A DNA stretch of 64,000 nucleotides from a virus (IMGVR_UViG_3300029305_003340:338-64337), one strand, 5' to 3'; counted from the first letter of the stretch, positions 5,968 to 26,559 are shown. The notes: generated from the letters alone by a model not told the origin. Program-made: numbers and translations.

Positions 5968-8283
5968 ATGAATGTTATAAAACGAGATGGAACAATAGTT
6001 CCTTTTGATAAAGAAAAAATAATTAAAGCTATTAATAAAGCTTTTCTTGATGTTGACGGACAGTTATATGAAACCGATACCGCACAAGATATTGCTGACG
6101 ATATCGAATATTTATTAGAATATAGTAATAAAAATATTACTCTTCCATTAACTGCTGAAAAATTTGAAAAAGCAAATCAAATTGAAGTAGAACATATTCA
6201 AGACCTCGTAGAAGATTATCTGATGCGTTCTGAACGCCGCGATGTGGCTCGTGCTTATATTAGATATAGATATAAGAGAGAAGTAGCCAGAGAAAAGCGT
6301 GATGAATTTATTGGGGCTATTGGGGAAAAATTATCTGCTTCAAATGTTTAGAATCAAAACGCAAATGTAGATGAAGAGTCTTTTGGTGGTCGTGCCGGTG
6401 AAGCTCAAAGTCTTTTAACTAAGACTTATGCTCTTGATTATTTAGTTTCTGATATGGCTCGTAAGAACCATCTTGAGAATTATGTTTATATCCATGACCT
6501 TGATGCTTATGCAGTCGGCAGTCATAACTGCTTATCAATTCCATTCGACCATCTTCTTGCTAATGGTTTTAATACTCGCCAAACAGATGTGCGTCCCGCA
6601 GGGTCTGTAAATACTGCATTCCAGCTTGTTGCTGTTATATTTTAGCTTCAAAGTCTTCAGCAGTTTGGTGGGGTAAGTGCTACTCATTTGGACTGGACTA
6701 TGGTGCCATATGTGCGGAAGAGCTTCCGCAAGCACTGGAATGATGGTGTAAAATATATTGGAAAACCTTCTGGCAGATTCCCTAAGTTTTGGGAAAACAT
6801 AAAAGAAGATTTGCCAATTAATGAATATCCAGATTATGATGATTGTGCTGACACTTATTATTATGCTTTAGAGATGACCGAAAAAGAAGTCCATCAAGCT
6901 GTCGAAGGAATGTATCACAATCTAAATACTCTTCAAAGCCGCTCCGGCAATTAGCTTCCATTTACTTCTGTCAATTATGGCACTTGTACTTTACCAGAAG
7001 GTAGAATGGTTACTAAAGCTCTTTTGGAAGTATCTCTTGAAGGGTTAGGAAAACTTCATAAAACTTCTATTTTCCCTTGCGGAATTTTCCAATGCATGAA
7101 GGGTGTTAATCGCGAACCAGGAGATCCAAATTATGACTTATATAGACTGGCTTTAAAATCAACTGCAACCCGTCTCTATCCTAATTATGCTAATGTTGAT
7201 TGGTCTGGCAATGCAGGATATGACCGCAATGACCCAGCTACATATTTTTCTACAATGGGTTGTCGCACTGCAAACGGTTGGGATATTAATGGATTAGGTC
7301 AGCAAAAAGATGGTAGAGGAAATATTTGCCCAGTAACTATTATTCTTCCCACCTTGGCAATGGTGGCAAAAGAAGCTTATCATCGTTCTTATGAGCGACC
7401 AGAAGATTTCCCAAAAGATATTGCGGATAGTTCCGCTGTTGGTTCTCGTTCAGAAGTAGATGTTTTTATCCGTTTATTAGATAAAAAAATCCACGAAGCA
7501 AAAGATATGCTCCTTGAGCGTTTTGAGTGGATTTGTTCTCAATCTCCCGCTTCAGCTCGCTTTATGTATGAAAATGGATTAATGGCTGGCTATATTCCAG
7601 AAGAAGGAATTAGAAGTGCTCTTAAACATGGTACTATTGTCATTGGCCAGCTTGGACTTGCGGAAGCCCTTCAAATTCTTATTGGTTGCGACCATACGAC
7701 CGCAGAAGGCATGAGACTCGCAAAGAGAATTGAACAACTATTTAAAGATAGATGTGCAGAGTTTAAAGAACAATATAAATTAAATTTTGGTGTTTATTAT
7801 ACTCCCGCTGAGAATCTTTGTTACACCGCTTTAAAGAAGTTTAGAGAAAAATATGGTGTCATTGAAAATGTAAGTGATAAAGAATTCTTCACCAATTCAA
7901 TGCATGCCCCAGTATGGAAGAAAATGAGTCCATTCCAAAAAATTGATATTGAAAGTCAATTAACTGGTTATAGCTCTGCGGGATGTATTACCTATGTCGA
8001 ACTCGATACGGGAATTAAAAATAATCTTGACGCTTTAGAGCAAATTGTTAATTATGCAATGGATAAAGATATTCCTTATTTTGCGGTCAATGTGCCTAAT
8101 GATACTTGTTTAGAATGTGGATTTTGTGATGAGTTTAATAATGAATGCCCAATGTGCGGAAGCGATCATATCCAACAATTACGTCGTGTAACTGGGTATT
8201 TGACCGGTAACTATACAACTGCCTTTAATTTAGGTAAACAAGATGAAGTCCATCATAGGGTAAAACATACTGAGGATTTATAA
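5968..8283 (+). CDS. nrdD: anaerobic (class III) ribonucleoside-triphosphate reductase with N-terminal ATP cone; TAGs at 6349, 6643, 6952
   Basis: ATP cone VIKRDG, YIHDLD, MGCRT, YYTPAENLC, CxxC-CxxC, glycyl radical loop RRVTGYL. Four same-frame ORFs join at NV*NQNAN, AVIF*LQS, SGN*LPFTS. Confidence 0.95.
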
Positions 8284-8768
8284 TGAAATACGCAGGAATA
8301 ATTTATAATGATTTTTCTGCGGCACCTGGAGTAAGTTTAACTTTCTTTACTTAGGGATGCCCCCATCATTGTCCCGGGTGTCATAATCCAGAAACCTGGG
8401 ATTTTGATGGAGGGAAAACGGTCCCCGCAGACATTATTGAAAAAATTTATAATGGTTTAACCGATAGAGGAATTAAAAGAACTTTCTGTATTATGGGCGG
8501 AGAACCTTTATGTCCAGATAATATATTTTTAACTAATCTATTGGTTACTGAAATCAAAAATAGATTACCTGACCAAAAAATTTATATATGGACAGGATAT
8601 TTATATGAAGATTTATTAACTGACTCTAATCCTAAAATGAAACACATCCTTGGGACTATTGATTGCTTGATTGATGGCCCTTATATTGAGGAATTAAGAG
8701 ATATTACTCTTCCAATGAGAGGTAGCTCCAATCAAAGAGTAATCGAGTTAAAGGAGAAAAAAATATGA
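8283..8768 (+). CDS. nrdG: anaerobic RNR activating enzyme (radical SAM); TAG at 8352-8354
   Basis: FFT*GCPHHCPGCHNPETW (CxxxCxxC), MGGEPL, IWTGY, DGPYI, RGSSNQR. Confidence 0.93.
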
Positions 8769-9310
8769 AAATAATTGAAGAACATAAACTTTATGATTTA
8801 TCTGCGATAGAGGGAGATTTAGTTTATACTTCTGATACAAGAAGATTTTATATCTATACTGTCCCAAATGGGTGGGAGCTCTTTTCCGCAGATAGACTTA
8901 ATGAAATACAAGAAGATATAAAAGATACTACTGCACAGTTAAGCACTTTAAGTCTTTACGATTTAAATAAGCAGCTTATTGCTCAACTGCCCGATCTTAC
9001 TGACCAGGAGATAGAAGAAAAAAGAGCTATTCTTAAAGAATTTAAAGAAGTCCAAAAAGCTCAATTTTATATGCTTTTAAATAATGAGATTAGATATTAT
9101 ACGCTTTTTGAAATTAATACTTTTGAAGTTTTCTTAAACACTTATCCTTTTGAACAAGAAGTAATTAATTGCCTGTTAAGTCTTGGCTCTATTAAAGCTA
9201 TTGATTTAAATAGTGATGGAGTAATTGAAGCTTGGATAGATAATACTGATGCGGGCATTATTGTATTATATCTTTTCCCATATGACGAGGGGGTAATTAC
9301 TTGTCTGTAA
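8765..9310 (+). CDS. hypothetical protein
   Basis: Open 181-aa ORF with AAGGAG RBS, translationally coupled to nrdG. Confidence 0.7.
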   Translation: MKIIEEHKLYDLSAIEGDLVYTSDTRRFYIYTVPNGWELFSADRLNEIQEDIKDTTAQLSTLSLYDLNKQLIAQLPDLTDQEIEEKRAILKEFKEVQKAQFYMLLNNEIRYYTLFEINTFEVFLNTYPFEQEVINCLLSLGSIKAIDLNSDGVIEAWIDNTDAGIIVLYLFPYDEGVITCL

Positions 9311-9561
9311 TTGTTTGTGATATTAATTTAGGTGTTTTAAATCAAACCATTAGTCATGTAGGCGATGGTTTTAGCAAAATTGTTGCTACTGCCCCAATTG
9401 ATTTATTAGGAGAAGTTTTTCCTGCTTTATGTTATAATTTAAATACTTATGATATAAAGATAAAGGGAAACAAAGAATATCTTTCTGATTTAATTGGTGC
9501 AATAAAAGAAAATGAAATGTATACTTACAGTGCAAATAAAATTAATATAGAGGTAATTTAA
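9301..9561 (+). CDS. hypothetical protein
   Basis: 86-aa ORF, TTG start after GAGGGG, tightly packed in the operon. Confidence 0.6.
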   Translation: MSVIVCDINLGVLNQTISHVGDGFSKIVATAPIDLLGEVFPALCYNLNTYDIKIKGNKEYLSDLIGAIKENEMYTYSANKINIEVI

Positions 9562-9803
9562 TGAAATATTTAATTAATTCCGTTGATACTTATAGAGTAG
9601 ATACTGTCGCAGAAGTTGAACAACTTCATGAAGTCCTTAAAAATGATACTACTTTTGAGCTTGTATCTTTTAGTTATAAGACTAAACAGATTAAATCAAA
9701 AGGCGAAGTAATTGATGAATACCAGCTTGTTCAGGCTAAGAAGGTATTTACCAATGAAAAAGAACCAACAGAGCAAGTAGAAATTTTTTATGAGGTAGAC
9801 TAA
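9561..9803 (+). CDS. hypothetical protein
   Basis: 80-aa ORF with GAGGT RBS and TAATG overlap. Confidence 0.7.
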   Translation: MKYLINSVDTYRVDTVAEVEQLHEVLKNDTTFELVSFSYKTKQIKSKGEVIDEYQLVQAKKVFTNEKEPTEQVEIFYEVD

Positions 9804-9804
9804 T

Positions 9805-10374
9805 ATGGCAAAATTTGAAGTTGTAAGTAGATTTGCGGGAGAGGAAGATCTCCTGCTCCCGACTCGCGGAACGGCGAATTCCGCAGGCTATGATTTTATA
9901 GTCGCAGAAGATGTACTTATTCCATCTTGGGGCCAACTCTATAGTAAGCTTATGAATGAATGTATAGACGTAAGCGTTCCTCGCACACTCTCCGGAGTAG
10001 CTTCTGCCACTAAGCTTTGTGGGGCAAAGCCTACACTTGTTTCTTCTGGCGTAAAATGTAAGCTTGAACCTGATACATATCTTGAACTTTCAGTTCGTAG
10101 CTCTACTCCTCTTAAACACTGGCTTATTCTTGCCAATAGCGTAGGAGTAATTGATGCTGACTATTATAATAATCCTGATAACGAAGGAGAAATTTTCTTC
10201 CAAATGATTAATCTTTCTCCATTCCCAATCCAACTCCAAAAAGGAGACCGCATCGGTCAAGGAATCATTAAACCATTCCTTATCACCGAAGATGACGCGG
10301 CAAGTGGGGCCCGCATGGGTGGATTTGGTTCTACTGGAACCGCATACACTATTCCCACTTCTTCAACCTGCTAA
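9805..10374 (+). CDS. dut: trimeric dUTPase
   Basis: SAGYDF, RSS, GVIDADY, GDRIGQG, RMGGFGSTG motifs. Confidence 0.93.
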   Translation: MAKFEVVSRFAGEEDLLLPTRGTANSAGYDFIVAEDVLIPSWGQLYSKLMNECIDVSVPRTLSGVASATKLCGAKPTLVSSGVKCKLEPDTYLELSVRSSTPLKHWLILANSVGVIDADYYNNPDNEGEIFFQMINLSPFPIQLQKGDRIGQGIIKPFLITEDDAASGARMGGFGSTGTAYTIPTSSTC

Positions 10375-10853
10375 TGAAAATTTTAGCCCTAGACCAATCA
10401 TCAAGAGTATCAGGATATGCAATCTTTGATAACGGCAATTTAATTGATAGTGGAAAATTTACAGTTGATGATACAAATATGGGTATAAGATTATTTAAAA
10501 TTAAAAGAACAGTAGAAAAATTAATAGATGATAATAATATAGAACTTGTCGCTTTTGAAGATATACAATTGCAAGATAATAAAGGCCCAAATAATGTAGT
10601 AACTTATAAAAAGTTAGCTGAAGTATTTGGCGTATTAGAAGAATTATGCACTGAAAAGAAAATTCCTTATAAGATAATTCATTCTCAAACTTGGAAATCG
10701 GAACTTAATATTAAGGGATATGAACGCACCCAATAGAAGAAGAGTGCACAAGAATATATATTTAATACTTATGGGAAGAAAGTTTCCCAAGACGAGAGCG
10801 ATGCCATTTGTATCGGCATTTGTGCGTCTCGCGAAGAAGAGTCGGCTTTTTAA
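10374..10853 (+). CDS. RuvC-like Holliday junction resolvase; TAG at 10734-10736
   Basis: ILALDQSS..SGYA, VAFED, and after read-through *KKSAQ...QDESDAICIG (final acidic catalytic motif); TAA at 10851-10853. Confidence 0.8.
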
Positions 10854-10860
10854 TAACAAA

Positions 10861-10896
10861 GGCCGACTTTTTATAATTTCCCCATTCTATTTCTTA
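10861..10896 (+). promoter_or_regulatory. copy of recurrent GGNCRA-N7-TAAT motif
   Basis: GGCCGA-cttttta-TAAT in the intergenic gap before the holin-like gene. Confidence 0.5.
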
Positions 10897-10925
10897 ATTC
10901 CAATAGAAAGGTATTAGAAAGGGGT

Positions 10926-11360
10926 ATGAGTATGTTAGAGTTTTTCTCTATGTACTGGGCTAATATTTTATTAAGTTTAGTGACTGCGGGAGCCCTCGCT
11001 TTTTGCCGCTGGACCTGGAAACAAATGAAAAACTATAAGTCTCTTTTAGATTAGCAAGAAATAGATACTTATGATGATCATATTGAAGAAAAATTAGCAC
11101 CTGTAATTGAAGAAATTGAAAAACTGCGTGAGTATATACGTCAAGTGGATACTACCGAAAAACATAAAATTGATTTAATCGTTGATTCATATAAATTCAG
11201 ATTAACTCAAATGTGCCGTTTATATCTTAAACAAGGATATATGACACAAGACCAATATGACCAATTAACTGAGTTTTATAAACTTTATGAAGCTCTTGGC
11301 GGAAATGGTCAGGCAAAACAATATTTTGAAAAGACTATTGCTTTACCTATAAAACCATAA
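10926..11360 (+). CDS. membrane protein of the phage YxxLGGNG family (holin-like/lysis-associated); TAG at 11052-11054
   Basis: N-terminal TM YWANILLSLVTAGALAF, coiled coil, C-terminal YKLYEALGGNG...LP; joins ORF 11145-11360. Confidence 0.65.
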
Positions 11361-11408
11361 AAAAAAATAAGGGAGAATATATTAAAAAATATATTCTCCC
11401 TCTTTTTT
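11361..11408. terminator. bidirectional intrinsic terminator between the two convergent arms
   Basis: AGGGAGAATATAT / ATATATTCTCCCT inverted repeat flanked by A and T tracts. Confidence 0.85.
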
Positions 11409-11720
11409 ATTGTCTTTAAGACGCTTAAAAAGTAGATTAGTGATTCCTATAATTTCTTGCCCATAGGTAGCAATAATATCAGCTAAAAGCTCTTCTTGCT
11501 CATAAGTTAACTCTACATTATAGCTATACATAGCTGCATGAGTCAGTTCATGGCAAAGAACTTTTTTCATATAATAGCTATTTAATTCTTCATTAATAAC
11601 TATTGTCTTTAGTGGGTCATCACAGGCCCCAATGGCATAATTACCATTACTCATTAATAAGAGAGGATGGAAGGGAGATACCAGCAATATCTCCCAATCT
11701 TCTCCATTAATATTAATCAT
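11382..11720 (-). CDS. small HExxH zinc metallopeptidase-like protein (cassette gene 6)
   Basis: KVLCHELTHA followed by EQEELLAD; GACD...IVINEEL preceding strand motif. Confidence 0.7.
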   Translation of the reverse strand: MININGEDWEILLVSPFHPLLLMSNGNYAIGACDDPLKTIVINEELNSYYMKKVLCHELTHAAMYSYNVELTYEQEELLADIIATYGQEIIGITNLLFKRLKDNKKEGEYIF

Positions 11721-12411
11721 CTTCTAATTTAGCCACTTTCTGTGCTAATGAAGACATGCGATTGGCCAGATACTTCTTCTCTTCTGGAGAAGCATCTTCA
11801 ATCATTTCAACTACATCATTAGAAAGTTCTTTAATATACTTTTCTAATTCTTGTAATTGAACATTTTTGTCATGTTTCATTTCTTTAGCTTCCATATATC
11901 TGCGGCGGCTCATGGGGCTTTGGCCTTCGCGATGATCACGCATCATCATCTCATAGGGGATCTGGCGTTCATGATAGTTTCTTCGTCCCCCATTAGAGCC
12001 AGAAGACCCGCTATTAGAAGATCCAGAAGATCCACTTCCTCCACTTGAGGAAGATCCGTCGGTATACATTCTGCCGTCGTTGTACATGGTGCCATCATTA
12101 TACATTGGCTGATACATTCTACCATCATTGTACATAGGGTAATACATGCGGCCGTACATTTTGTCCATGTCTCTATTGTATCCTGGCTCAGAGTAATATA
12201 CTGTGGTGTTGTAGTGTCCTCCATTTCCACCCTCCTCTGCCTTTTTCATTGATTCAGTGATAGTGCAATAATACATTGCCTCTTCAAGGTCTTTAATCAT
12301 ATCTACAACTTCACCGAGTTCTTTAGCGTCAACACTTTCTAAATGACCCATTTGGCCCTAAGCACAACACATTAAAGTGTCTTTCATTGATTTTAGCATT
12401 TCCATACCCAT
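11713..12411 (-). CDS. helical protein with central Tyr/Met/Gly/Ser low-complexity region (cassette gene 5); TAG at 12358-12360
   Basis: ATG 12411 after AGGAGG; MGMEMLKSMKDTLMCCA*GQMGH..., MYNDG repeats, C-terminal helical LEKYIKEL...ASPEEK. Confidence 0.8.
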
Positions 12412-12425
12412 AATAAAAGACCTCC

Positions 12426-12845
12426 TTATGCTACTCTCTCAACAATTAAGTTCGCATTTTGAACATCAATTGCTTGAGTGCTGATATTGCGGACGCCAAC
12501 AGAAGCGCAGCAACCGCGTGGAACCTCGATGAAAATTGCACTGAATACATTCCAAAATTCTTCTACTGCGGCAGGTGTAACAGTCATAGTAGTTGTAGCA
12601 ATTGGCTCCCCATCTAAAGAGATAGCAAGAGAAATAGCTTCAACTGTTCCATCTGTTGGAATTGCAATATTACCACCAAAAGTTACCTTAAAACGGGCAC
12701 GGCATTGGTTGGTGACCCCTTTAAGAGTCACCAAACCGCTGCCATCTCTATGGGTAATGGAGCAACTTCCGCAAATCACTTCGTCGGTAAATAGTACATT
12801 TTGGTTTTCTGCTACAGTTTGTAAAGCATTAGCAGTTATTTCCAT
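12426..12845 (-). CDS. beta-rich protein, possibly BclA-C/TNF-like jelly roll (cassette gene 4)
   Basis: ATG 12845 after GGAGG; QTVAENQNVLF...GSGLVTL...FKVTFGGNI...ISLAISLDGEPI...NANLIVER beta pattern. Fold assignment is inference. Confidence 0.65.
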   Translation of the reverse strand: MEITANALQTVAENQNVLFTDEVICGSCSITHRDGSGLVTLKGVTNQCRARFKVTFGGNIAIPTDGTVEAISLAISLDGEPIATTTMTVTPAAVEEFWNVFSAIFIEVPRGCCASVGVRNISTQAIDVQNANLIVERVA

Positions 12846-12874
12846 AAATTCGTCCCTCCATTTAATTTTTTTAA

Positions 12875-13666
12875 TTAGCCGTTGCAGCCGCAACCGCTAT
12901 TAAAGAAGTTATATCCAAAAGCTGGGGTGTAGCAGCAATTGGGATTTGGAACCATATATGCGGGAACAGGGCATGGATCAGTTAACTTGCTAATTAAATA
13001 GCTATTTTGTGCTTGCTGAGAAGCAGCAAATTTAAGAGACTGATTTTCTGCCTGGAGACTTGCGATCTTATCCTGAGTTAAGAAATCAATGATGTCGCGA
13101 GTGCTATCCGCAATGGCTCTACGAGTATCGCAAGCCTGAGTTGCGAGGTTGTAGTTTAAATCGCAGAAGTTTCTGTCGATTAAACGCTGTGTTTCGCAGC
13201 AGCAAGCAGCGTCTGCGGCAGCCATGCCATTAAGTTGAGCAGTGAGTGCGGTATTACCTGCGGTAATAGCATTCTGTAAGCCAAATGTAGCTTGCATATC
13301 AGCGATAGAGTTTTGAGTAATAGCATCATTAATGCCAGCGAAGCCCTGACATAAAGTGCTTTGGACTCCAGAGAATCCGTTTAACATTCCAGTATTGACG
13401 GCATAGAAACCATCACATAATCCCTACTGGATACCACGAACGCCATTCTCAAGGCCATTAATATCAAATCCATAGGCAACTTCTTCTCTCACGCTTCCGC
13501 CACCTCCATTACCGAAACCATATCCGTTATTGCCCCAGCCGCAAATGAGGAATAAAAGAATTATCCACCATGCGCCGTCGCCCCACATGCCATCGCCGGA
13601 GCCATTGCGTCCGGTGACTGCTGCGATATCGGATAAAGAATAACCTGAATTGCCATAATTAAACAT
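12875..13666 (-). CDS. Gly-rich/TM/coiled-coil/Cys-rich protein, 263 aa (cassette gene 3); TAG at 13424-13426
   Basis: Same-frame ORFs join at GIQ*GLCDGFYA; WWIILLFLICGWG hydrophobic segment, ACCCET, C-terminal NPNCCY...GCGCNG. Confidence 0.85.
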
Positions 13667-13681
13667 AATGTTTACCTCCTG

Positions 13682-13930
13682 TTATTTTCTAACCCCCAGC
13701 ATCTAACAGAAGGCGGCGAATTCTTTATCAAAATCAATGCCACGCTATTTAGAGAGATTGCGAGCAATTTGTTCAATTTCATTTGTCTTTCCGTTCTTTG
13801 CTAAATTTAACAAATTTGCTCCCATTGGAGTGTTGGACATTTGGCCCTCTAAAATACTTAGCACTAATTGCTGAGGGTTCTATCCATTCTTAATCATTTG
13901 AATTAATTGGGCTGGATTTACTTGTAACAT
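13682..13930 (-). CDS. small Gln/Asn/Met-rich helical protein, 82 aa (cassette gene 2); 3 TAGs
   Basis: MLQVNPAQLIQMIKNG*NPQQLVLSIL...EQIARNLSK*RGIDFDKEF; absent from the ORF track, fills the gap exactly. Confidence 0.8.
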
Positions 13931-13949
13931 TTATCTTTCTGCCCCCTTC

Positions 13950-14369
13950 TTAGAAATTTAAATCAACTGTTTTCTTCCCCTACACTGTCACTGGTACTGA
14001 CTCTGTAAGAGGGAGTAACACTTGCTTTAATTGAGATATCACTTCATCGAATTCTTGTCTTGTTACAAAATCGGTAGATGTGGCAGCCATGGGGTCTGAG
14101 AAAGGTATTTCTTTTAGCTCATATAGCTGTAAAATTGCGGAGCCATCCATACCGACTTGTTTAGTATAGATTCGTTTGTTGGCGATATCTGGGAAAATGA
14201 AAATTGATCCATCAAAATCTATTGGGGTAGCTTTGACTTCCTCCACTGAAGATACTGGACGTCCTTTCAGCATCATCTGTTGCGTTGGCATCATCGCAGA
14301 CCTGGTATAATAGTTTTGAGGAGCTTGTTGTTGAGTATTAGTATAATACCCATAAGGATTTTGTGTCAT
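13950..14369 (-). CDS. protein with Q/N/Y/P-rich N-terminus and small beta domain (cassette gene 1); TAG at 13980-13982
   Basis: MTQNPYGYY..QQQAPQ, LKGRPVSSVEEVKATPIDFDGS, IYTKQ..MDG, FVTRQEFDE; TAA at 13950-13952. Confidence 0.8.
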
Positions 14370-14422
14370 ACGTATGTGCTTCCTTTCTGTAAAATTTTTT
14401 CCAACTTCTCTCCATACTCTTA

Positions 14423-14458
14423 TAAAAATTTATGTAAATTCATTGTAAAAGTTTGTCC
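14423..14458 (-). promoter_or_regulatory. copy of recurrent GGNCRA motif heading the six-gene cassette
   Basis: GGACAA-actttta-CAAT...ATAAATTTTTAT on the - strand, just downstream of a terminator. Confidence 0.5.
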
Positions 14459-14483
14459 AAACGATCGGCGAGCGCCTGCAAAC

Positions 14484-14528
14484 AAAAAAAAAGAGGGAGA
14501 CACCCATTTTAGGTGTCTCCCTCTTTTT
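14484..14528 (-). terminator. intrinsic terminator after the holin
   Basis: AAAAAGAGGGAGACACC / GGTGTCTCCCTCTTTTT inverted repeat with T tract on the - strand. Confidence 0.85.
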
Positions 14529-14532
14529 ACTT

Positions 14533-14937
14533 TTATTCAACAGGAGTAATCTTATTCTTATTGACTTCTGCTTCAATTTTCTTAGTGATGTAAGCAGTTA
14601 AATCACCATATACATTAGAAAGATAAATTTTTGCATCGTCAGTAATAATGTTCATAACTGCTTTATAAGTTAATTCAAAAGCAGCTTTTTGTGCTTCTAA
14701 ATCAAAAGCATTTTTATTTTTAAGTGCTTCAACATAAGTTTGATTAGTAGCGATAACACAATCAATAATGGTATCGTCTAACAAGTCAATATATTTTTGA
14801 ACAAGAGCGTCATCACTCTCTTTAGAAATTTGTTCACTTTTAGCACTAATAAACTTAATTAAATAAGTAGTTAATAATCCCAAAAGAGGAATTATACATA
14901 CTTGAAAAATTTCATTTAAAATAATAATCCAATCCAT
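14533..14937 (-). CDS. putative holin (LL-H-like)
   Basis: N-terminal TM VCIIPLLGLLTTYLIKFI, then V.ATNQTYVEALK...YITKKIEAEV; located at the end of the tail gene block. Confidence 0.65.
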   Translation of the reverse strand: MDWIIILNEIFQVCIIPLLGLLTTYLIKFISAKSEQISKESDDALVQKYIDLLDDTIIDCVIATNQTYVEALKNKNAFDLEAQKAAFELTYKAVMNIITDDAKIYLSNVYGDLTAYITKKIEAEVNKNKITPVE

Positions 14938-14951
14938 AATAAATCTCCTTT

Positions 14952-16067
14952 TTATCGAATACGAATCCAAATTCGTCCATCAACTGCAATATTATTTTGA
15001 CCCCAAGTATCATAAGTAGGAATTTCAGAAACAGTTCCTATAATACGATCTGGGTACATGCAAATTTCTTCACGAGTCATTTTACTAATAGTACCATCGG
15101 GGCCAGAACAAACAGAATCTCCAGCTTTAAATTTTTCTTTTGGCTCATAAGGATAGGCTAAAACTCTTCCTGCAACAGCAATAGGAGCTTTACATTTTTC
15201 AGTCTCGCCAATGGCAAAACCAAAAGTATCAGAAATAATTTCTGGGGCAGGCTCAAGACGCTTATAAGAAAGTCTTAAAGTTCCATCTCCATTTTCAACG
15301 ACGCATCTACCTGGATCCGCATATGCTTCACGGAATTCAGCATAGTCATTATAAACTGCCCCATAAAAAGCTACATGAGAATCTACTCGAGAACTTGTCA
15401 TAGTTAGAGTTTTTGTATAAGTCACTGCATCATTAGAACATCCTGTGTAAAATTCAATCTTTCCATCCGAAGTTAAATAAATTGCTTCATCATCTGCTAA
15501 AGCTGCTGCCGCAGGCATAGTTTTTCCACATTCTCCAGAAGTAATAATTGTAGTGCCCGAAGGTGATCCTAAACGAACACTTAAATTATATGTATTATCT
15601 GCATTTTCGGTTCCAACCATATCAATAACACTACCGTTATAATATGATCCAGCTCCATTTTGATAGGAAACATTTAAAGCTGGAATAATTTGTCCTTTTG
15701 TTGGAGTAGCAGTAGTATTTTTAAGAGTTATTTGGCCAGTAACAGTGCCACCGGTTAAAGGTAAATAATTATTTAAAGCCGAAGTAGTAGCTGCCCCAAT
15801 AGAAGCTGGAGTAATCGCACCTATAGATTCATCCACATAGTTTTCAGTTGCTAAATTATCAGGTAAATTAATATTGGTAATAGCAGTATTAACATATTCT
15901 TCTGTAGCTAAATTATCAGGAATTGTGATATTAGCAACTGCATTATCCACGTATTCTTCAGTAGCATATCCTTCAAGACTGGGTATAACTAAATCTTGAA
16001 TCCTAGTAACAGCTGCATCTATGGCAGCACCAGTATGTATAGAAGTATAAGTTGTTATATCAGCCAT
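14952..16067 (-). CDS. tail fibre/spike protein with C-terminal intramolecular-chaperone (Peptidase_G2-like) domain
   Basis: ATEEYVD repeats, YLPLTGGTVTG, NDYAEF...SDTFGFAIG...PIAVAGRV...GDSVCSGPDG...YPDRIIG. Confidence 0.75.
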   Translation of the reverse strand: MADITTYTSIHTGAAIDAAVTRIQDLVIPSLEGYATEEYVDNAVANITIPDNLATEEYVNTAITNINLPDNLATENYVDESIGAITPASIGAATTSALNNYLPLTGGTVTGQITLKNTTATPTKGQIIPALNVSYQNGAGSYYNGSVIDMVGTENADNTYNLSVRLGSPSGTTIITSGECGKTMPAAAALADDEAIYLTSDGKIEFYTGCSNDAVTYTKTLTMTSSRVDSHVAFYGAVYNDYAEFREAYADPGRCVVENGDGTLRLSYKRLEPAPEIISDTFGFAIGETEKCKAPIAVAGRVLAYPYEPKEKFKAGDSVCSGPDGTISKMTREEICMYPDRIIGTVSEIPTYDTWGQNNIAVDGRIWIRIR

Positions 16068-16070
16068 TTA

Positions 16071-17546
16071 TTACACCACCTTTATCCAAATGCGGCCGTT
16101 AACCGCGACATCATTCTGGCCCCAGGTCTCATAGGCGGGGACCGCGCTAACATATCCAATAATACGGTCTGGGTATTCTTTAATTTCTTCTCTTGTCATT
16201 TTACTTACAGTTCCTTCTGGTCCGGTACATACCGCATCGCCAGGCTCATAAGTGTTTCTATCTTCATAAGTATAAACTAAAGCTCTTCCACTAACAGCAA
16301 TAGGCATTTGAGCCTTATCGGTTTCACCAATAGCAAAACCAAAAGTATCAGAACAAACATTACCTCCGCCTTGAAGACGTTTAGTAGAAAGAGATAAAGT
16401 ATCATCACCATTTTCAATTACTATTCGGCCATATGGAATTTTAATGTCTTCTTTTAATTCACGATATTCAGCATAGTCGTTCCAAGCTGCTCCATATAAT
16501 ACAGAACCAGAAGTATAAACGCCTGTATTCATGGTAACAGAGGCAGAAGAAGATGCTGCCGCAGAGACTCCTACTACATAAGCCTTAGAAGTAGCGGAAG
16601 GAATATTATTATTTACGAGAGTACCGTTTCTAGTTGGAAGGTAATTAGTATAATTAGAAGTTGAACTAATAGCAGTTAAATAATTATATCCTGTGCTGTC
16701 TCCATAAATAGCTACTCCGCCATGTTTATTTCCTGCAGTCCCTGACGCGGTATTATTACCAAGCCACAACTAACATCTTCCTGCAGTATCAGCAGTACCA
16801 TTCTAAATACTTAAATAAGCATTAGCAGTTTTTGCAACTGTAGTAGTATTAGTGCTAGAAGATGTTCCTCCAAGTAAATAATAATTAGTTATTGTGCTTG
16901 GATTTACCGCAGTCTAAGTTACCTTAGTGTCAGTAACAGTAATCCATCCTGCATCTCCATCAGTTGCACTATTTTTTGCTAAAACCTGACCTGCACTACC
17001 ACCAGTAGGCAAAGCAACTATTTCTTGCCAAGTAGCATCACCTTCAGTTGAGCTATTTTTAACTAAAACTTGACCTGCGGAACCTCCTTCTGGAAGTCCT
17101 TGAACATCAGCCCAAACAGCATCGCCATTAGAAGAACTCTATTTAGTAAGAACCTAACCTGCATTGCCGCCATTAGGAAGAGCAACGTCTTCCCCAGACA
17201 AGAAAAATAATTGTCCATTTTCACCTTCTGCGGGTAAAGTATCGCCATAACTAACATCTTCGGTGAGTATCAATGGTTCAGATAGTCCTACTTTAAGATC
17301 AATAATGGTATCTTCACCATTAAATGTGCCAATAGTTTCTCCATCAGCCTAAAGAATTAAAGTTCCTTTTGTGTGATCTGCGGTTCCAGCGTTCAAAACA
17401 ATACGGCTATCCGTACCAGTCGCTGTCGCAGTATCAATATAGAATTTTCCATCATCTGTGGTTACATAGCAATAACCTTCAATAGTATTTGGTCTATTGA
17501 TTTTTAAAGCCTCAGCTAGACCTTTTTCAATTTTAAAGAGTGCCAA
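16071..17546 (-). CDS. tail fibre/spike protein with C-terminal intramolecular-chaperone domain; several TAGs
   Basis: TTG start after GAAAGGAGAG; ORFs 17349-17546 and 16071-16769 in the same frame; NDYAEY C-terminus paralogous to the downstream gene. Confidence 0.75.
16944..17183 (-). repeat. three 84-bp (28-aa) coding tandem repeats LPxGGxAGQVLxKxSxxxGDAxW
   Basis: The equivalent Gln codon is TAG (17154-56), CAA (17070-72) and CAG (16986-88). Confidence 0.9.
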
Positions 17547-17580
17547 TCTTCAGCCTCTCCTTTCAAAATCCATATATTCA

Positions 17581-17610
17581 AAAATGGAGTAAGTTTTCTT
17601 ACTCCATTTT
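17581..17610 (-). terminator. hairpin / probable terminator
   Basis: AAAATGGAGTAAG / CTTACTCCATTTT perfect inverted repeat over the stop codon. Confidence 0.6.
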
Positions 17611-18192
17611 TAACCAATAAATATCATTTTGTTTGCGAATAGTATCTATCTCTTGATAAATTTCAAGAATAGTATCCGCATCATAAATATAATTTTCAGA
17701 CTCACTTAAAGCATCCATGCCATGTAAAACAGCACTTTTACTTGTTAAAGTATTTAAATTATATAAATATTTTCCATTAGCTTCTAACTTATAAAATTTA
17801 ACAGAAAAAGTCACATTACCCGAAAAAGCAGTCGCTGCTCCCTCAATCATCCAAGGAAAAAGAATTTTTCCTTCACGAGATAAATCAAAATAAGGGACAT
17901 AGTAAACATAGCCTTTTTTCTTATTATCTGGATCAGCATTTTGGAACTAAACGACACAATGAAGATTATTTAAATCTACTGAGTCATAATACCTATCAAT
18001 TTCAAAATAAATAGTCTCTGCGCAATGATCATACTAAACACTTAAAACTTTTGGAGCTTCAATTGTTCGAGTATTTAAATCTATTTTATAAATAGGCTCG
18101 TCAGGTGGGAGTGTGAGAGCTTTTACCTGACGATTATTAGTATCTTGTATTAAATATAATAAACTTTCATAATCATAAGAAGTGGTTATCAT
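17599..18192 (-). CDS. baseplate upper protein (BppU-N-like); TAG-containing
   Basis: IDLNTRTIEAP..LSV*YDHCAETIYFEIDRYYD...FSVKFY; paralogous to the N-terminus of the upstream gene. Confidence 0.6.
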
Positions 18193-18214
18193 TTAGAACT
18201 CTCACTCCTCTTTA

Positions 18215-20002
18215 TTATTCAGCGTTAAAGGGAAGACTTGTCACAGACGCCTCATCCTCATTATATTTATTTGTAATTATGCACTTATAAATACCACTTT
18301 CTGAAACTTTATAAATAATATTAGTTTCTCCTATAATATTTTCATATTTTTTTGTTTCAGAATTTCTTTTTTGCCACTAATAAAGAATTTCATCAAAGTC
18401 AGTAGAATTGACTTTTGCATCGCAACTAATTTCAGCATTAACACTAACATAAATAGTGTTATCCTAAATAGATTGAATTATTCCATCGGCAAGATAATTA
18501 GAAATTGTAGGAGCTATTGCTCTATTGGTAACTCTAATCGCAGGAGAAACTGTTTCTAAAGAATTATTATTCTTAGTATTAGTAGCAATTAAATAATAAT
18601 GACCTTTTTCAGTAATCTCAATAGAATTAGAAGTCTAACCTTCAAGAATAACGGCTTTGCTATAGTCATCATCATTTTTACTATATCCAGAATAATATTT
18701 CCATTTATAGGTTAAAACCCCGTTATCTGGAGCAGTTACCTCATAAACAACAGGATCTATAGTTCCATCCTCGTTTAAAATATCTTCTAAAATAATAGAT
18801 CTGTCTTCTAAAACAAAAATGGCCTGTTGCGCAAATGGAACTAAACAATCATCTTCTATGCTAGAATAATTGCCACGTCCAGAAGTATTAGTAGCAGTAA
18901 CCACATATAAGCCAGCCGTTTTAGGAGCACAATAAGAATATCTTTCGTAAATTGTGACGCCTTCTTCAGCAGGCAAATCTCCATTATAAAGCTCATATTT
19001 TCCATCTCTTAAATAATAATAAACATCATTAGCTTTTCTTTCAGTGTCTAAAGTTTCTTCATACCCATATCCTTGAGTTAAAGTTTCTTCAACATTATTA
19101 CCTTCGGCATCTTTCTAAATCCAATTATAAGAGATTTCGCCAATACCAGTTAAAATATTCTCTGGAACATGAGCTTTAGTCTTTAAAATTTTAGTTTCAA
19201 TACCATTAATCAAAATAGTGGTTTTAATATCATCAAGATTAATAGATTCTGCTAAAATCCAGCCTTCTTCAAAAACAGGCTCCGCGGCCGGAGTAGTAAT
19301 ACCAGTAGCTGCACTATTTTTAATATTATCAAAAATCATTTTACTTTTATCAACTATAGTTGCTGTAATAGCATCTTCATCTGAAATGTCAAAATCAAGA
19401 GCAGGATTAACCTTTACAGTAGCAGTTAAAGTACTAAAGCTATAAGTTAAATAAGAACTATTATCATCTTCAAATCTATCATAAAAACGAACAGAAAATT
19501 GAACGGGGCCTGCTGCTTTAGTAATTTCAGAAGTGATTGGCCATCCGAAAGTAACATATCCTGGTTTATAACTAAGGCTTTTATTATAAGTTAAAGATAA
19601 GCCTTCATCGCCATCAGCATTTTTCCATTGAACTAAAATATCTTTATAATATAAATCAGTTACATCAAAATATCTGTCAATGGTAAAATAAAGAGTTTCC
19701 GCAATTTCATCGCCTTTAACAGCAATACCAGAAGTCATAAACTCTGTAGGAATTTCAATCTTACGAGTATTAGCATCTATATCAAAAGTTCCTTCATCGA
19801 CTGGCAAAATGGTAAAGATATGATCAGTTCCTTCTCTTTCCTCATATTCAGCCAGAGTTTTTATACAAGTAAAATAATCATCTATATTGGTGATAATGTC
19901 ATCAGGCTTTAAAACCTAACCTTCTTCATCTATATAATTTAAAGCCATGTTGGCTTTTTTAAATAAATCTTGATAAATACCAATATTATCTCTTGTAATC
20001 AT
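18215..20002 (-). CDS. BppU-N-like baseplate/fibre protein with C-terminal Ig-like domains, 595 aa; several TAGs
   Basis: IDANTRKIEIP..IAVKGDEIAETLYFTIDRYFD; Ig-like signatures LTYKW, GLYVVTATN, GIYKCIITN; fragments share a frame. Confidence 0.65.
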
Positions 20003-20036
20003 CTAAAGAACTCCTTTCTTATCATATTAAAATTTT

Positions 20037-20070
20037 ATTGAGAGAAGAGTTTTTTTTCTCTTCTCTCAAT
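20037..20070 (-). terminator. hairpin / probable terminator
   Basis: ATTGAGAGAAGAG / CTCTTCTCTCAAT inverted repeat in the intergenic gap. Confidence 0.55.
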
Positions 20071-20072
20071 AA

Positions 20073-20108
20073 TAAAAATTTATTAAATTTTATTTATTTA
20101 ATTCGTCC
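20073..20108 (-). promoter_or_regulatory. copy of recurrent GGNCRA motif
   Basis: GGACGA-attaaat-AAAT...ATAAATTTTTAT; the last element matches the 14458 copy at identical spacing. Confidence 0.45.
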
Positions 20109-20302
20109 GGAATTTCTTTCCATTCTTCTAATTCTTCTGGAAGAATCGTTACAGAATAAACTTTCCTATCCCCATTAGTTAATAAATTACCTACATCAGC
20201 CTATAAGGTTAACATTTTTACATGGTCAATCCCCTGTAATAAAACTGATGAAGTAATGCTTCCATTTATTCCAATGTATCTATATTGTTTAACAATTTTC
20301 AT
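20090..20302 (-). CDS. small tail-associated hypothetical protein, 70 aa; 1 TAG
   Basis: MKIVKQYRYIG...L*ADVGNLLTNGD...WKEI; start overlaps the stop of the upstream giant gene. Confidence 0.7.
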
Positions 20303-26499: not shown

Positions 26500-26523
26500 C
26501 TAAATTCTCCTTTCTATCATAAT

Positions 26524-26559
26524 AAAAAAATGGGGAGGATATGAAAATATCCTCCCCAT
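26524..26559 (-). terminator. intrinsic terminator
   Basis: ATGGGGAGGATAT / ATATCCTCCCCAT followed by a T tract on the - strand. Confidence 0.85.

What the first reader, a model, noticed from the sequence alone, without database searches (positions are those of the whole stretch)
11382..14458. Self-contained six-gene cassette of unknown function: best candidate for an undescribed system
Seen: bounded by two terminators, headed by its own motif copy, six tightly packed co-oriented genes with strong RBSs. They encode (1) a Q/N/Y/P low-complexity protein with a small beta domain, (2) an 82-aa Q/N/M helical protein, (3) a Gly-rich/TM/coiled-coil protein with CCC and a Cys-rich tail, (4) a beta-sandwich resembling BclA-C/TNF folds, (5) a helical protein with MYNDG repeats and a Ser/Gly linker, and (6) an HExxH metallopeptidase. 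Four of the six need TAG read-through, which suggests late expression. None is a standard virion, replication or lysis gene. From memory, similar proteins recur as hypotheticals in gut Clostridia phages and prophages (not verified here). Inference: a self-assembling, possibly disulfide-crosslinked and protease-matured structure, such as a spore coat/exosporium modifier or a protective matrix for virions.
Basis: partly seen in the sequence, partly recalled or inferred. Interest (0 to 1): 0.85.

Follow-up and report, generated by a model that had tools for sequence, protein, structure and literature searches.

The report
Portable phage rod-and-knob gene cassette
Six small genes at the end of this gut phage's late genes are one copy of a very common, movable and still unexplained phage gene set that seems to build a membrane-seeking rod capped by a knob shaped like a spore-surface protein.

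Summary
Six co-oriented minus-strand genes (11382-14369) lie between two strong terminators. Four carry in-frame TAG, which this phage reads as Gln. Five or six of them recur in the same order in other phages: the core P1+P3+P4+P5 is present in 62 of 66 loci with full flanks. P4 folds (pLDDT 92.5) as a stand-alone TNF/C1q jelly roll, closest to the F-BclA, BclA and ExsF/BxpB exosporium proteins. P3 is a Gly-flanked hydrophobic segment, then a long helical rod with an invariant CCC, then a Pro/Cys-rich tail. P6 is a ~110-aa HExxH peptidase; other lineages carry an unrelated Cys-His protein instead, and never both. The spore-coat reading is not supported. P3-like genes, with similar partners, occur in Bacteroides and crAss-like phages. 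P3 alone occurs in viruses of Methanomassiliicoccales. The cassette also sits at varied genome positions. Best reading (about 0.35): a self-contained, protease-associated rod-and-knob assembly that is tethered to the infected cell's membrane and exposed at lysis. Its biological role is unknown. No library or paper searched names it. This scan had already met the same cassette on other genomes, with the same open verdict.

The parts
14488..14528 (-). Intrinsic terminator after the holin gene. It insulates the cassette from the tail-fibre/holin operon.
   Evidence: 19-bp stem with 8 G-C pairs, then a T run (sequence).
14419..14449 (-). Promoter-like element TTTACA-N17-TTTATA(AG), about 50 nt upstream of the P1 start codon.
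   Evidence: Read from the sequence. The consensus scan did not list it, so this is an inference.
13950..14369 (-). P1, 139 aa: a Q/N/Y/P-rich N-terminus, a conserved ~50-aa domain (KGRPVSS..IDFDGS..FPD..IYTKQ) and an amphipathic helix. The TAG at 13982-13980 lies in the variable tail.
   Evidence: The family is present in 65 of 66 full-flank loci. Weak match to phrog_21718, E 1.3e-4. No Pfam or PDB relative.
13682..13930 (-). P2, 82 aa: a small conserved helical protein (NPQQL..NP..NLL.LA..IE.IARNL..G.DFDKEF) with three in-frame TAG codons.
   Evidence: Present in 30 of 66 full-flank loci, about as many as carry P6 (29). No convincing Pfam or PDB relative.
12875..13666 (-). P3, 263 aa, the 'rod'. 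It has an N-terminal peptide and a Gly-flanked hydrophobic segment (13535-13576). Predicted helices cover residues 69-110 and 120-228. The CCC (13196-13204) is nearly invariant, with its third Cys invariant. The tail (12878-12979) is Pro/Cys-rich: P.PVPAY.VPNPNCC...GCGC.
   Evidence: phrog_16490 E 2.6e-29. Present in 64 of 66 full-flank loci. The AF2 monomer model is poor (pLDDT 46), so only secondary structure was used.
12426..12845 (-). P4, 139 aa, the 'knob': a stand-alone TNF/C1q-type jelly roll with invariant C112-C113 and nearly invariant C48.
   Evidence: AF2 pLDDT 92.5, pTM 0.86. Foldseek: F-BclA C-terminal domain E 1e-7, ExsFA/BxpB 2e-6, BclA C-terminal domain 3e-6. VIA Z 17.3 / 15.3 / 15.8. 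phrog_20016 E 3e-59. 981 clusters at 50% identity.
11713..12411 (-). P5, 232 aa: a conserved N-terminal helical part, a G/Y/R/S/D-rich low-complexity centre (MYNDG repeats and a Ser/Gly run here) and a conserved C-terminal helical part. One TAG.
   Evidence: Present in 64 of 66 full-flank loci when the divergent cluster 17 is counted. Only chance-level Pfam/PHROG matches.
11382..11720 (-). P6, 112 aa: a minimal HExxH metallopeptidase. HELTH lies at 11538-11552 and the invariant Glu-Glu at 11490-11495.
   Evidence: Invariant H57, E58, H61, E76, E77 in 16 sequences. Pfam Peptidase_M78 scores 22.6 bits against a cut-off of 22. phrog_1233 E 1e-14. Best PDB relative is the 110-aa MJ1213, E 0.014.
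11369..11402 (.). Bidirectional terminator between the cassette and the convergent plus-strand replication block.
   Evidence: 15-bp and 14-bp stems found on both strands.
14533..14970 (-). Context only: the holin gene directly upstream of the cassette.
   Evidence: phrog_13712 'holin' E 7.6e-30. The same family sits directly upstream of the cassette in 9 of 66 full-flank loci.

Best explanation
The six genes are the 'type A' form of a portable accessory operon carried by tailed viruses of gut and rumen microbes. The operon builds a rod-and-knob complex.

Proposed parts:
- P3 forms an oligomeric, probably trimeric, alpha-helical rod. A ring of Cys residues (the CCC) may staple it.
- P3's Gly-flanked hydrophobic N-terminal segment inserts into, or lies on, the infected cell's cytoplasmic membrane.
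- P3's conserved Pro/Cys-rich tail docks the P4 trimer. P4 is a TNF/C1q jelly roll of the ExsF/BclA kind. ExsF docks the Pro-rich exosporium leader of BclA and F-Anchor in a comparable way.
- P1, P2 and P5 are low-complexity and helical proteins that act as assembly partners or matrix.
- P6, a minimal Zn peptidase, matures one of the components. In the other cassette type an unrelated Cys-His protein sits at the other end and would fill the same role.

None of the proteins except P3 has an export signal. The complex would therefore be made in the cytoplasm and become exposed when the phage lyses the cell. This matches how exosporium and endospore-appendage parts are made in the mother cell and exposed by its lysis (recalled knowledge). 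The operon is its own transcription unit.

Shown: the gene set, its order and its portability; the P4 fold; the catalytic residues of P6; the hydrophobic/helical/Cys layout of P3; and the mutual exclusion of the two putative peptidases.

Inferred: oligomer state, P3-P4 docking, proteolytic maturation, membrane insertion, timing and purpose. My guess at the purpose is a role at or after host lysis (release, dispersal or protection of progeny) rather than in building the virion or in spores.
For: Conserved order P1-(P2)-P3-P4-P5-(P6):
- Of 100 loci, P1 was found in 80, P2 in 37, P3 in 91, P4 in 99, P5 in 87 and P6 in 41. Many of these loci are cut by contig ends.
- Among the 66 loci with at least 3.2 kb upstream and 2.5 kb downstream, the core P1+P3+P4+P5 is in 62 and all six genes are in 28.

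Portability. The cassette lies:
- after the lysin in Ceridwen;
- between a PGRP amidase and the integrase in Dulem virus 33;
- after an integrase in Dulem virus 39;
- between the minor and major capsid genes in Dulem virus 35;
- after the holin in the window;
- among recombination genes in Bacteroides phage C3_41T2LP.

Putative peptidases. P0 (Cys-His) is in 32 of the 66 loci, P6 (HExxH) in 29, both in 0 and neither in 5. The Bacteroides and crAss-like versions also carry small HExxH proteins.

P4. The fold is secure, and ExsF is among the best matches. It always stands alone: only 1 longer form, probably an artefact, came out of 370 candidates, and the top 150 representatives are 83-196 aa.

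Docking precedent. The ExsF trimer binds a Pro-rich leader in its inter-subunit cleft, and BclA residues 1-19 are cleaved off (PMC12357932, passages read).

P3. The tail and the CCC are the best-kept parts between the window and the Bacteroides phage: 35% identity over 157 aa, E 5e-18, with P.P(V/I)PAY.VPNPNCCY and GCGC matching.

Separate unit. Terminators flank the set. In one metatranscriptome library a whole 2,975-nt contig, 97% identical, spans 11402-14378. It runs from the terminator stem to 9 nt before the P1 ATG.
Against: - No complex was modelled or observed.
- The hydrophobic stretch is only about 12-14 residues and the flanking charges do not fix a topology, so membrane insertion is not shown.
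- P3 does not match the exosporium-leader family, and P4 matches no Pfam family at all, BclA_C included.
- Peptidase activity and substrate are unknown. P0 has no detectable relative, so 'two alternative peptidases' rests on invariant Asp-Cys...His...Asp/Ser columns only.
- The type A versus type B split follows phage lineage, so the mutual exclusion may be a single historical event.
- The loci were gathered by similarity to P4 and many are close relatives. About 30 share the window's downstream genes, so the counts overstate independent support.
- The RNA contig comes from one study, and DNA can be present in RNA libraries. A contig of a mobile cassette can also end at its borders simply because the assembly graph branches there.
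- In the archaeal viruses only P3 is recognisable.
Confidence: 0.35

Rival explanations
1. Accessory virion fibre. P3 is a coiled-coil shaft and P4 its receptor- or glycan-binding tip. The complex is added to finished virions as an optional adhesin, for example for gut mucus or host-surface glycans.
For: - TNF/C1q-type knobs cap phage and giant-virus fibres. Examples are the cyanophage A-1(L) short tail fibre binding domain (8ke9, Z 12.4), the A4 portal-tail complex (Z 12.7) and collagen-like proteins in BFVD.
- In the window the cassette follows two tail-fibre-like genes and the holin. In Dulem virus 35 it lies inside the head module.
- P3 and P4 have the N/T/A/Q-rich, charge-poor make-up usual for fibre proteins (sequences; the comparison is my own knowledge).
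- Depositors labelled P3-like genes 'outer capsid protein/viral fiber'.
Against: - The same cassette moves between phages with very different genome sizes and gene layouts, including crAss-like phages, and no shared attachment site is evident.
- P4 is unusually conserved for a receptor binder: 64% mean column identity.
- P3 carries a membrane-like hydrophobic segment, and the set is terminator-insulated.
- The depositors' labels probably stem from chance-level coiled-coil matches: E 0.04-1 to myosin, HA2 and spike.
Confidence: 0.2
2. Membrane-active release helper. P3 works like a spanin or a viral fusion protein and helps to break or fuse the host membrane at the end of infection. P4 and the others act as regulators.
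For: - The cassette lies directly after the holin in the window and in 9 of 66 full-flank loci. It is near lysis genes in Ceridwen, Dulem virus 33 and cr116_1.
- The layout is a hydrophobic segment, two long helices, conserved Cys and a Pro-rich tail. This recalls i-/o-spanins and class I fusion proteins (recalled knowledge).
- It occurs in hosts that share only a cytoplasmic membrane.
- No endolysin was found among the 38 window proteins tested.
- A preprint reports that lysis genes of recoded phages are rich in recoded stops (10.1101/2021.08.26.457843, passages read).
Against: - No PHROG or Pfam spanin or holin match for any of the six.
- Most hosts implied by the MAG labels are Clostridia, which I recall as lacking an outer membrane.
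- The cassette is optional and has its own promoter and terminator.
- It lies far from lysis genes in C3_41T2LP and Dulem virus 35.
- A TNF-like knob and three low-complexity partners are not needed to break a membrane.
Confidence: 0.15
3. Superinfection exclusion or another defence or counter-defence cargo, expressed from its own promoter.
For: - In temperate relatives it sits in the classic cargo slot next to the integrase: 13 of 66 full-flank loci have an integrase downstream on the other strand.
- It is terminator-insulated.
- A sigma-70 region 4-type HTH gene lies upstream in 27 of 66 loci.
- An RNA-library contig covers the cassette alone.
- It includes a membrane-seeking protein.
Against: - No PADLOC match at E up to 1 for any of the six.
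- Six or seven structural-looking, low-complexity and Cys-rich proteins are unlike known exclusion genes (my knowledge).
- In this phage four of the six genes need TAG suppression.
- Order and sequence are strongly conserved across very different hosts.
Confidence: 0.12
4. One reading: a spore coat or exosporium modifier that decorates the host's spores.
For: - P4's best structural matches are exosporium and endospore-appendage proteins.
- The partners are Cys-, Tyr-, Gly- and Gln-rich, like coat proteins (recalled knowledge).
- Most MAG labels are Clostridia.
Against: - Related cassettes occur in Bacteroides and crAss-like phages, and P3 occurs in viruses of Methanomassiliicoccales.
- The full cassette is in a phage isolated on Butyrivibrio fibrisolvens, which I recall as not forming spores.
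- There is no exosporium leader, no BclA_C Pfam match and no collagen stalk.
- Metazoan TNF and C1q domains score within about 2 Z units of the spore proteins.
Confidence: 0.03

Closest known systems
ExsF/BxpB (ExsFA) with the BclA / F-Anchor exosporium leader, and the BclA / F-BclA C-terminal domains (Bacillus cereus group)
   Same: P4 has the same stand-alone ~140-aa TNF/C1q jelly roll: VIA Z 15.3 to BxpB/ExsF and 17.3 to F-BclA, with rmsd about 2.0 A over 122-129 residues. Its partner P3 has a conserved Pro-rich peptide, and there are a protease and Cys-rich proteins. None of the proteins has a classical signal peptide, so assembly would be cytoplasmic and exposure would come through lysis.
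   Different: Sequence identity is only 12-18%. There is no Pfam BclA_C match and no TIGR03720 leader match. A coiled-coil rod with a hydrophobic head replaces the collagen stalk. The genes are carried by phages, including phages of hosts that I recall as not forming spores. Docking has not been shown.
TNF-superfamily ligands and C1q-family proteins of animals
   Same: The same fold at nearly the same scores: EDA-A1 Z 15.3, Caprin-2 C1q Z 14.4. As I recall it, TNF ligands are type II membrane proteins with a stalk and a trimeric head. P3 plus P4 would mimic that layout as two chains.
   Different: No sequence relationship. Head and stalk are separate genes. The context is prokaryotic and viral.
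Spanins (Rz/Rz1) and class I viral fusion proteins
   Same: A hydrophobic segment, two long helical stretches, conserved Cys and a Pro-rich partner region; a neighbouring holin; and a protease in the set. These features of spanins and fusion proteins are recalled, not tested. Depositors labelled P3-like genes 'spike protein/glycoprotein'.
   Different: Only chance-level matches: E 0.04-1. There is no lipoprotein partner, no C-terminal membrane anchor and no PHROG spanin hit. Most implied hosts have no outer membrane (recalled).
Minimal metallopeptidases of the MJ1213 type (which I recall as 'selecase' or 'minigluzincin') and Pfam Peptidase_M78 (ImmA/IrrE)
   Same: P6 is ~110 aa with HExxH plus downstream Glu. 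It scores 22.6 bits against a cut-off of 22 for M78 and E 0.014 to the 110-aa MJ1213.
   Different: The scores are borderline. No XRE-type repressor partner lies beside it, as ImmA/IrrE usually has (recalled). The substrate is unknown.

Membership tests
BclA C-terminal domain / ExsF-BxpB (TNF/C1q superfamily, exosporium) | Ten-stranded TNF/C1q-type jelly-roll fold | tested here: met
   AF2 pLDDT 92.5. Foldseek E 1e-7 to 5e-6, TM 0.64-0.76. VIA Z 14.4-17.3.
BclA C-terminal domain / ExsF-BxpB (TNF/C1q superfamily, exosporium) | Sequence membership (Pfam BclA_C, PF18573, or PDB sequence relatives) | tested here: not met
   P4 matched 0 Pfam families at E up to 1. The A1 profile matched 0 PDB sequences at E up to 10.
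BclA C-terminal domain / ExsF-BxpB (TNF/C1q superfamily, exosporium) | Partner carrying the exosporium leader peptide (NCBIfam TIGR03720), or a collagen-like stalk | tested here: not met
   No NCBIfam hit of that kind in any of the six proteins. P4 stands alone. P3 is helical, not collagen-like.
BclA C-terminal domain / ExsF-BxpB (TNF/C1q superfamily, exosporium) | Tied to spore-forming hosts and sporulation | tested here: not met
   The cassette or its core occurs in phages of Butyrivibrio fibrisolvens and Bacteroides uniformis, in crAss-like phages and in Methanomassiliicoccales viruses. That these hosts do not form spores is my own knowledge.
Peptidase M78 (ImmA/IrrE) / minimal gluzincins | HExxH plus a downstream Glu ligand, conserved across the family | tested here: met
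   H57, E58, H61, E76 and E77 are invariant in 16 sequences.
Peptidase M78 (ImmA/IrrE) / minimal gluzincins | Profile score above the curated cut-off | tested here: inconclusive
   22.6 bits against a cut-off of 22. PDB profile search: MJ1213 E 0.014, IrrE E 0.75.
Peptidase M78 (ImmA/IrrE) / minimal gluzincins | Adjacent XRE-type repressor substrate (ImmR-like) | tested here: not met
   No HTH protein within the window cassette. The HTH genes upstream in type B loci are of the sigma-70 region 4 type, and those loci lack P6.
Spanins | Match to spanin families, a lipoprotein o-spanin partner, and a host with an outer membrane | tested here: not met
   No spanin PHROG or Pfam match for the six proteins. 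No lipobox protein in the cassette (sequences). MAG labels are mostly Clostridia.
Class I viral fusion proteins | Significant similarity and a C-terminal membrane anchor | tested here: not met
   Best E-values are 0.13-1 to spike and HA2. The only hydrophobic segment is N-terminal.
Known anti-phage defence systems (PADLOC) | Any component matching a PADLOC model | tested here: not met
   0 families for all six proteins at E up to 1.

The most novel reading that the evidence does not exclude
P3, P4 and the peptidase form a fusion machine of prokaryotic viruses, analogous to class I viral fusion proteins. The peptidase would remove P3's N-terminal peptide and expose the Gly-rich hydrophobic 'fusion peptide'. 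The heptad-rich rod would refold. The knob would be held on through the conserved CCC/CC cysteines and would choose the target. The complex would fuse or rupture lipid membranes, whether cell, vesicle or neighbouring cell, in bacteria and archaea alike. That would explain why only the membrane-seeking rod is shared by phages of Firmicutes and Bacteroidota and by viruses of wall-less methanogens.
Probability: 0.06. Interest if true: 0.95.

Novelty: categorically new. Interest (0 to 1): 0.7.

Why it matters
The knob protein alone forms at least 7,994 clusters at 90% identity and 981 clusters at 50% identity in public data. The set travels as a unit between unrelated gut and rumen phages, and a related set occurs in Bacteroides phages. 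Yet no library or paper that I searched gives it a name or a function. A conserved multi-protein assembly that is this common and this portable points to a step in the phage life cycle, or in phage ecology in the gut, that has not been described. Two isolated phage-host pairs carry it: Butyrivibrio virus Ceridwen and Bacteroides phage C3_41T2LP. The question is therefore directly testable by deletion, fractionation and microscopy. It would also show what a spore-surface-type TNF/C1q knob does outside spores.

Tried and rejected
Family libraries. Pfam, PHROGs, NCBIfam and PADLOC on the six proteins gave only unnamed PHROGs and a borderline M78 match.

PDB sequence or profile searches:
- P4: none.
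- P3: chance-level coiled-coil matches.
- P0: none.
- P1: none.
- P2: one spurious repeat hit, a cytochrome c555 trimer with 0 stretches.
- P6: MJ1213 at E 0.014.

Pfam on whole alignments of P0, P1 and P2 gave nothing consistent.

Structure. The P3 fold failed (pLDDT 46) and I did not search with that model. Both fold jobs were then used, so P0, P1, P2 and P5 could not be folded.

Ideas dropped:
- P3's N-terminus 'SLSDIAAVTG' as a double-glycine leader with P0 as a C39-type peptidase. The motif is confined to type A, which lacks P0, and P0 has no C39 match.
- hhalign of the P4 profile against the 136-aa protein next to P3 in cr116_1 gave probability 0.8%. Its P4-likeness rests only on size, beta-rich make-up and a Cys pair.
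- Rfam at gathering scores found no intron model in L009.

Motif.

Endolysin. I looked for one among 38 window proteins and found none. The 1441-aa, 2857-aa and a few small proteins were not scanned, and the contig is probably partial, so this is no evidence of absence.

RNA libraries. Apart from the single 2,975-nt contig, the lack of cover on the flanks in X1 and X2 proves nothing. Shares were 0.17 and 0.07, from one study.

Papers. Searches found no description of the cassette. Only PMC12357932 and 10.1101/2021.08.26.457843 were read, as passages; the others were seen as search listings only.

Full report
WHAT IS THERE

The window is almost the whole of a 64,337-bp contig, and the contig is a phage.
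- The plus strand up to 11360 carries a Dda-like helicase, a DNA polymerase, a guanylate kinase, NrdD/NrdG, a dUTPase and a RuvC-like resolvase.
- The minus strand from 64000 down to 14533 carries a portal, virion proteins, giant proteins, tail-fibre-like proteins and a holin.

TAG is a sense codon in this phage. Three GxAGQVL repeats use TAG, CAA and CAG at the same place, and long frames open only when TAG is read as Gln. No tRNA gene lies in the window. A protein identical to P4 occurs on contigs of up to 180,857 bp, so this contig is probably a fragment.

THE OBSERVATION

Between a 19-bp-stem terminator (14528-14488) and a bidirectional terminator (11402-11369) lie six minus-strand genes:
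- P1, 13950-14369
- P2, 13682-13930
- P3, 12875-13666
- P4, 12426-12845
- P5, 11713-12411
- P6, 11382-11720

All start with ATG and end with TAA. The gaps are 14-29 nt, P5 and P6 overlap by 8 nt, and P1 to P5 have GGAGG-type ribosome-binding sites.

Four genes hold in-frame TAG codons. In homologues that have no TAG, the P2, P3 and P5 positions are sense residues. For example, at P3 residue 81, Gln is the commonest residue, in 15 of 71 homologues. P1's TAG lies in a variable tail and could be a stop.

A promoter-like TTTACA-N17-TTTATA(AG) lies at 14449-14419.

TAG density is 2.6 per 1000 codons in the replication block (6 of 9 genes have at least one). It is 6.2 in the cassette and 12.7 in the structural block. 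TAG therefore does not mark 'late' genes sharply here. A preprint proposes that meaning for recoded phages in general and notes variable use in replication genes (10.1101/2021.08.26.457843, passages read).

THE PROTEINS

P4. Its model is confident (pLDDT 92.5, pTM 0.86). It is a TNF/C1q jelly roll.
- Foldseek's best hits are the F-BclA C-terminal domain (E 1e-7), ExsFA/BxpB (2e-6) and the BclA C-terminal domain (3e-6), followed by animal TNF and C1q domains and cyanophage fibre domains.
- VIA-align gives Z 17.3 (F-BclA), 15.4-15.8 (BclA), 15.3 (BxpB/ExsF), 15.3 (EDA-A1) and 13-14.4 (C1q family).
- By sequence it matches nothing named, only phrog_20016 (3e-59).
- It is well conserved: 64% mean column identity over 23 sequences, with C112-C113 invariant and C48 nearly so.

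P3. It matches phrog_16490 (2.6e-29). Its layout is:
- a short N-terminal peptide;
- a 12-14-residue hydrophobic stretch flanked by Gly/aromatic runs;
- predicted helices at residues 69-110 and 120-228;
- a nearly invariant CCC, its third Cys invariant;
- a conserved tail, P.PVPAY.VPNPNCC...GCGC.

The monomer model was poor (pLDDT 46), as one would expect if P3 is an oligomeric rod. Profile matches to myosin, coronavirus spike and influenza HA2 are at chance level (E 0.04-1). They probably explain the depositors' labels 'spike protein/glycoprotein' and 'outer capsid protein/viral fiber'.

P6. It has invariant H57, E58, H61, E76 and E77 and a borderline Peptidase_M78 score (22.6 against 22 bits). 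It matches phrog_1233. Its best solved relative is the 110-aa MJ1213 protein (E 0.014).

P1, P2 and P5. They have no relatives in Pfam or PDB.
- P1 is a Q/N/Y/P-rich region, a conserved ~50-aa domain and a helix.
- P2 is a conserved 80-aa helical protein.
- P5 is two conserved helical ends around a G/Y/R/S/D-rich centre.

No PADLOC model matches any of the six.

RECURRENCE

- tblastn against GenBank phages found P4 in 16 records and P3 in 36, adjacent wherever both occur.
- A scan of IMG/VR with P4 gave 37 loci.
- A scan of one genome per species with the P4 profile gave 57 loci. Nearly all are gut or rumen MAGs labelled Clostridia. The closest (88% identity) is labelled 'Bacilli bacterium', and a few are labelled Bacteroidales, Akkermansia, Chlamydiaceae or proteobacterium. 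These may be binning errors.

Iterated local profiles on all 100 loci found P1 in 80, P2 in 37, P3 in 91, P4 in 99, P5 in 87 and P6 in 41, always in the same order. Many loci are cut by contig ends.

I then kept the 66 of 99 P4-bearing loci with at least 3.2 kb upstream and 2.5 kb downstream, dropping 33. In these 66, P1 is present in 65, P3 in 64, P5 in 64, all four core genes in 62 and all six genes in 28.

The knob family has at least 7,994 clusters at 90% identity (8,000 candidates were scored). It has 981 clusters at 50% identity with E up to 0.001. The top 150 representatives are 83-196 aa. Only one longer form, probably an artefact, was found.

Caveat: the loci were chosen by similarity to P4 and are not independent. 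About 30 share the window's convergent downstream genes.

TWO CASSETTE TYPES

Clustering the neighbouring ORFs showed a ~130-aa protein, P0 (phrog_3754), directly upstream of P1 in 39 loci. It has invariant Asp-Cys, His and Asp/Ser columns and no known relative.

In the 66 full-flank loci, P0 occurs in 32 and P6 in 29. They never occur together, and 5 loci have neither.

P0-type loci often also have:
- a ~70-aa sigma-70 region 4 HTH gene upstream (27 of 66; Pfam PF04545, E 7e-7);
- a ~110-aa helical gene after P5 (12 of 66);
- an integrase on the other strand downstream (13 of 66, 12 of them P0-type).

The window carries the P6 type (P1-P2-P3-P4-P5-P6). This type is found mostly on large contigs, several of them TAG-recoded. 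In 9 of the 66 loci it lies directly after the same holin family.

I read the replacement of one putative peptidase by an unrelated one as a sign that proteolysis belongs to the mechanism. The split follows lineage, though, so it may be a single event.

POSITION AND HOST RANGE

The cassette lies:
- after the lysin in Butyrivibrio virus Ceridwen;
- between an amidase and the integrase in Dulem virus 33;
- after an integrase in Dulem virus 39;
- between the minor and major capsid genes in Dulem virus 35.

A P3 relative from the crAss-like phage cr116_1 was used as a tblastn query and found 33 phage records. They include:
- at least 14 crAss-like phages;
- the isolated Bacteroides phage C3_41T2LP;
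- two viruses assigned to Methanomassiliicoccales, four records in all.

In C3_41T2LP the P3-like gene lies among recombination genes. It is followed by a 180-aa beta-rich protein with a CC pair, a 177-aa beta-plus-coiled-coil protein, a 77-aa helix-plus-R/D/Y-rich protein and a 164-aa HExxH protein. cr116_1 has a similar make-up, with two small HExxH proteins. By profile, however, only P3 is clearly homologous.

The window's P3 aligns to the Bacteroides one at 35% identity over 157 aa (E 5e-18). The CCC and the tail are almost identical. In the archaeal virus only P3 is recognisable.

This host range argues against any spore-specific role. The only envelope layer that all these hosts share is the cytoplasmic membrane.

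EXPRESSION HINT

Two metatranscriptome libraries from one study hold parts of the region, with shares of 0.17 and 0.07. I laid them on 8000-26000. One whole contig of X1 (2,975 nt, depth 18.1, 89 differences) spans 11402-14378. It runs from the terminator stem to 9 nt before the P1 start codon. This fits a separate ~3-kb transcript.

The evidence is weak, for three reasons. It comes from one study. RNA libraries can hold DNA. And a contig of a mobile cassette may end at its borders because the assembly graph branches there.

HOW IT MOST LIKELY WORKS

The parts look like a rod (P3) with a membrane-seeking head, capped by a trimeric knob (P4).

The closest worked-out precedent is the exosporium. 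There the ExsF trimer holds the Pro-rich leader of BclA or F-Anchor in its inter-subunit cleft, and the first 19 residues of BclA are cut off (PMC12357932, passages read).

By analogy I propose the following.
- P3's conserved Pro/Cys-rich tail docks P4.
- P6, or P0 in the other type, trims a component.
- P1, P2 and P5 help assembly or form a matrix.
- The complex is made in the cytoplasm, because only P3 has a hydrophobic segment, and it is exposed when the cell lyses.

All of these steps are inferences. I put about 0.35 on this reading as a whole.

The rivals and my confidence in each:
- optional virion fibre, 0.2;
- spanin- or fusion-like release helper, 0.15;
- exclusion or defence cargo, 0.12;
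- spore-surface modifier, 0.03.

COMPARISON AND NOVELTY

Membership of the BclA/ExsF family is met at the level of fold only. Sequence, leader peptide or stalk, and host criteria were tested and not met. P6 is a borderline member of M78 or the minimal gluzincins. Criteria for spanins, class I fusion proteins and PADLOC systems are not met.

Five literature searches found no description of the cassette. Supplements were closed.

Earlier notes of this scan describe the same cassette on other genomes and reach the same verdict: rod and knob, not spore-specific, function unknown. I checked several of their claims here and they hold.

As a multi-gene system the cassette lies far from any described kind. 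It is extremely common and can be tested in two isolated phage-host pairs.

Noticed in passing
L009:3995-5972 (also L010; P3 is likewise broken in L034): In a relative, the P3 gene is split exactly at the CCC codons: exon 1 ends ...AECC. The split is a ~1.2-kb insert carrying a 266-aa ORF with a GIY-YIG-like start (YVYEW..YVGKG). Rfam at gathering scores found no intron model there. Endonuclease genes also lie beside P3 in Dulem virus 33 (L002:4413-4964) and in Bacteroides phage C3_41T2LP (L101:3270-3890). The rod gene seems to be a homing target.
   Followed up: partly
window 20302-26559 (-): The 2085-aa protein has a BspA-type leucine-rich repeat region (PF13306, E 1.5e-12) but no CotH match at E up to 0.001. 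Another first-stage note proposed a CotH kinase domain here, and this scan does not support it.
   Followed up: partly
window 16986-17156 (-): Three 28-aa repeats in the 491-aa tail-fibre-like protein use TAG, CAA and CAG for the same Gln of GxAGQVL. This is internal proof of TAG=Gln.
   Followed up: yes
whole window: No tRNA gene, so no suppressor tRNA, and no endolysin among the 38 proteins scanned. A protein identical to P4 occurs on contigs of up to 180,857 bp. The 64-kb contig is therefore probably a fragment of a much larger phage.
   Followed up: partly
window 10926-11360 (+): A 144-aa protein with an N-terminal membrane helix (phrog_4105/4257, function unknown) ends 22 nt from the cassette's last gene, on the other strand. 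Two ~150-170-aa ORF families occupy the same place (31-47 nt downstream, opposite strand) in 30 and 14 related loci. I did not check that they match this protein.
   Followed up: no
L102:2152-3186: In the Methanomassiliicoccales virus vir215, a reverse transcriptase gene follows a tail protein gene about 0.7 kb upstream of the P3-like gene. It may be a diversity-generating retroelement.
   Followed up: no
L037:3994-4060 (-): Rfam int-alpA RNA (38.4 bits against a gathering score of 35.8) just upstream of the P3 gene (4147-4917) of a cassette interrupted further on, between P3 and P4.
   Followed up: no
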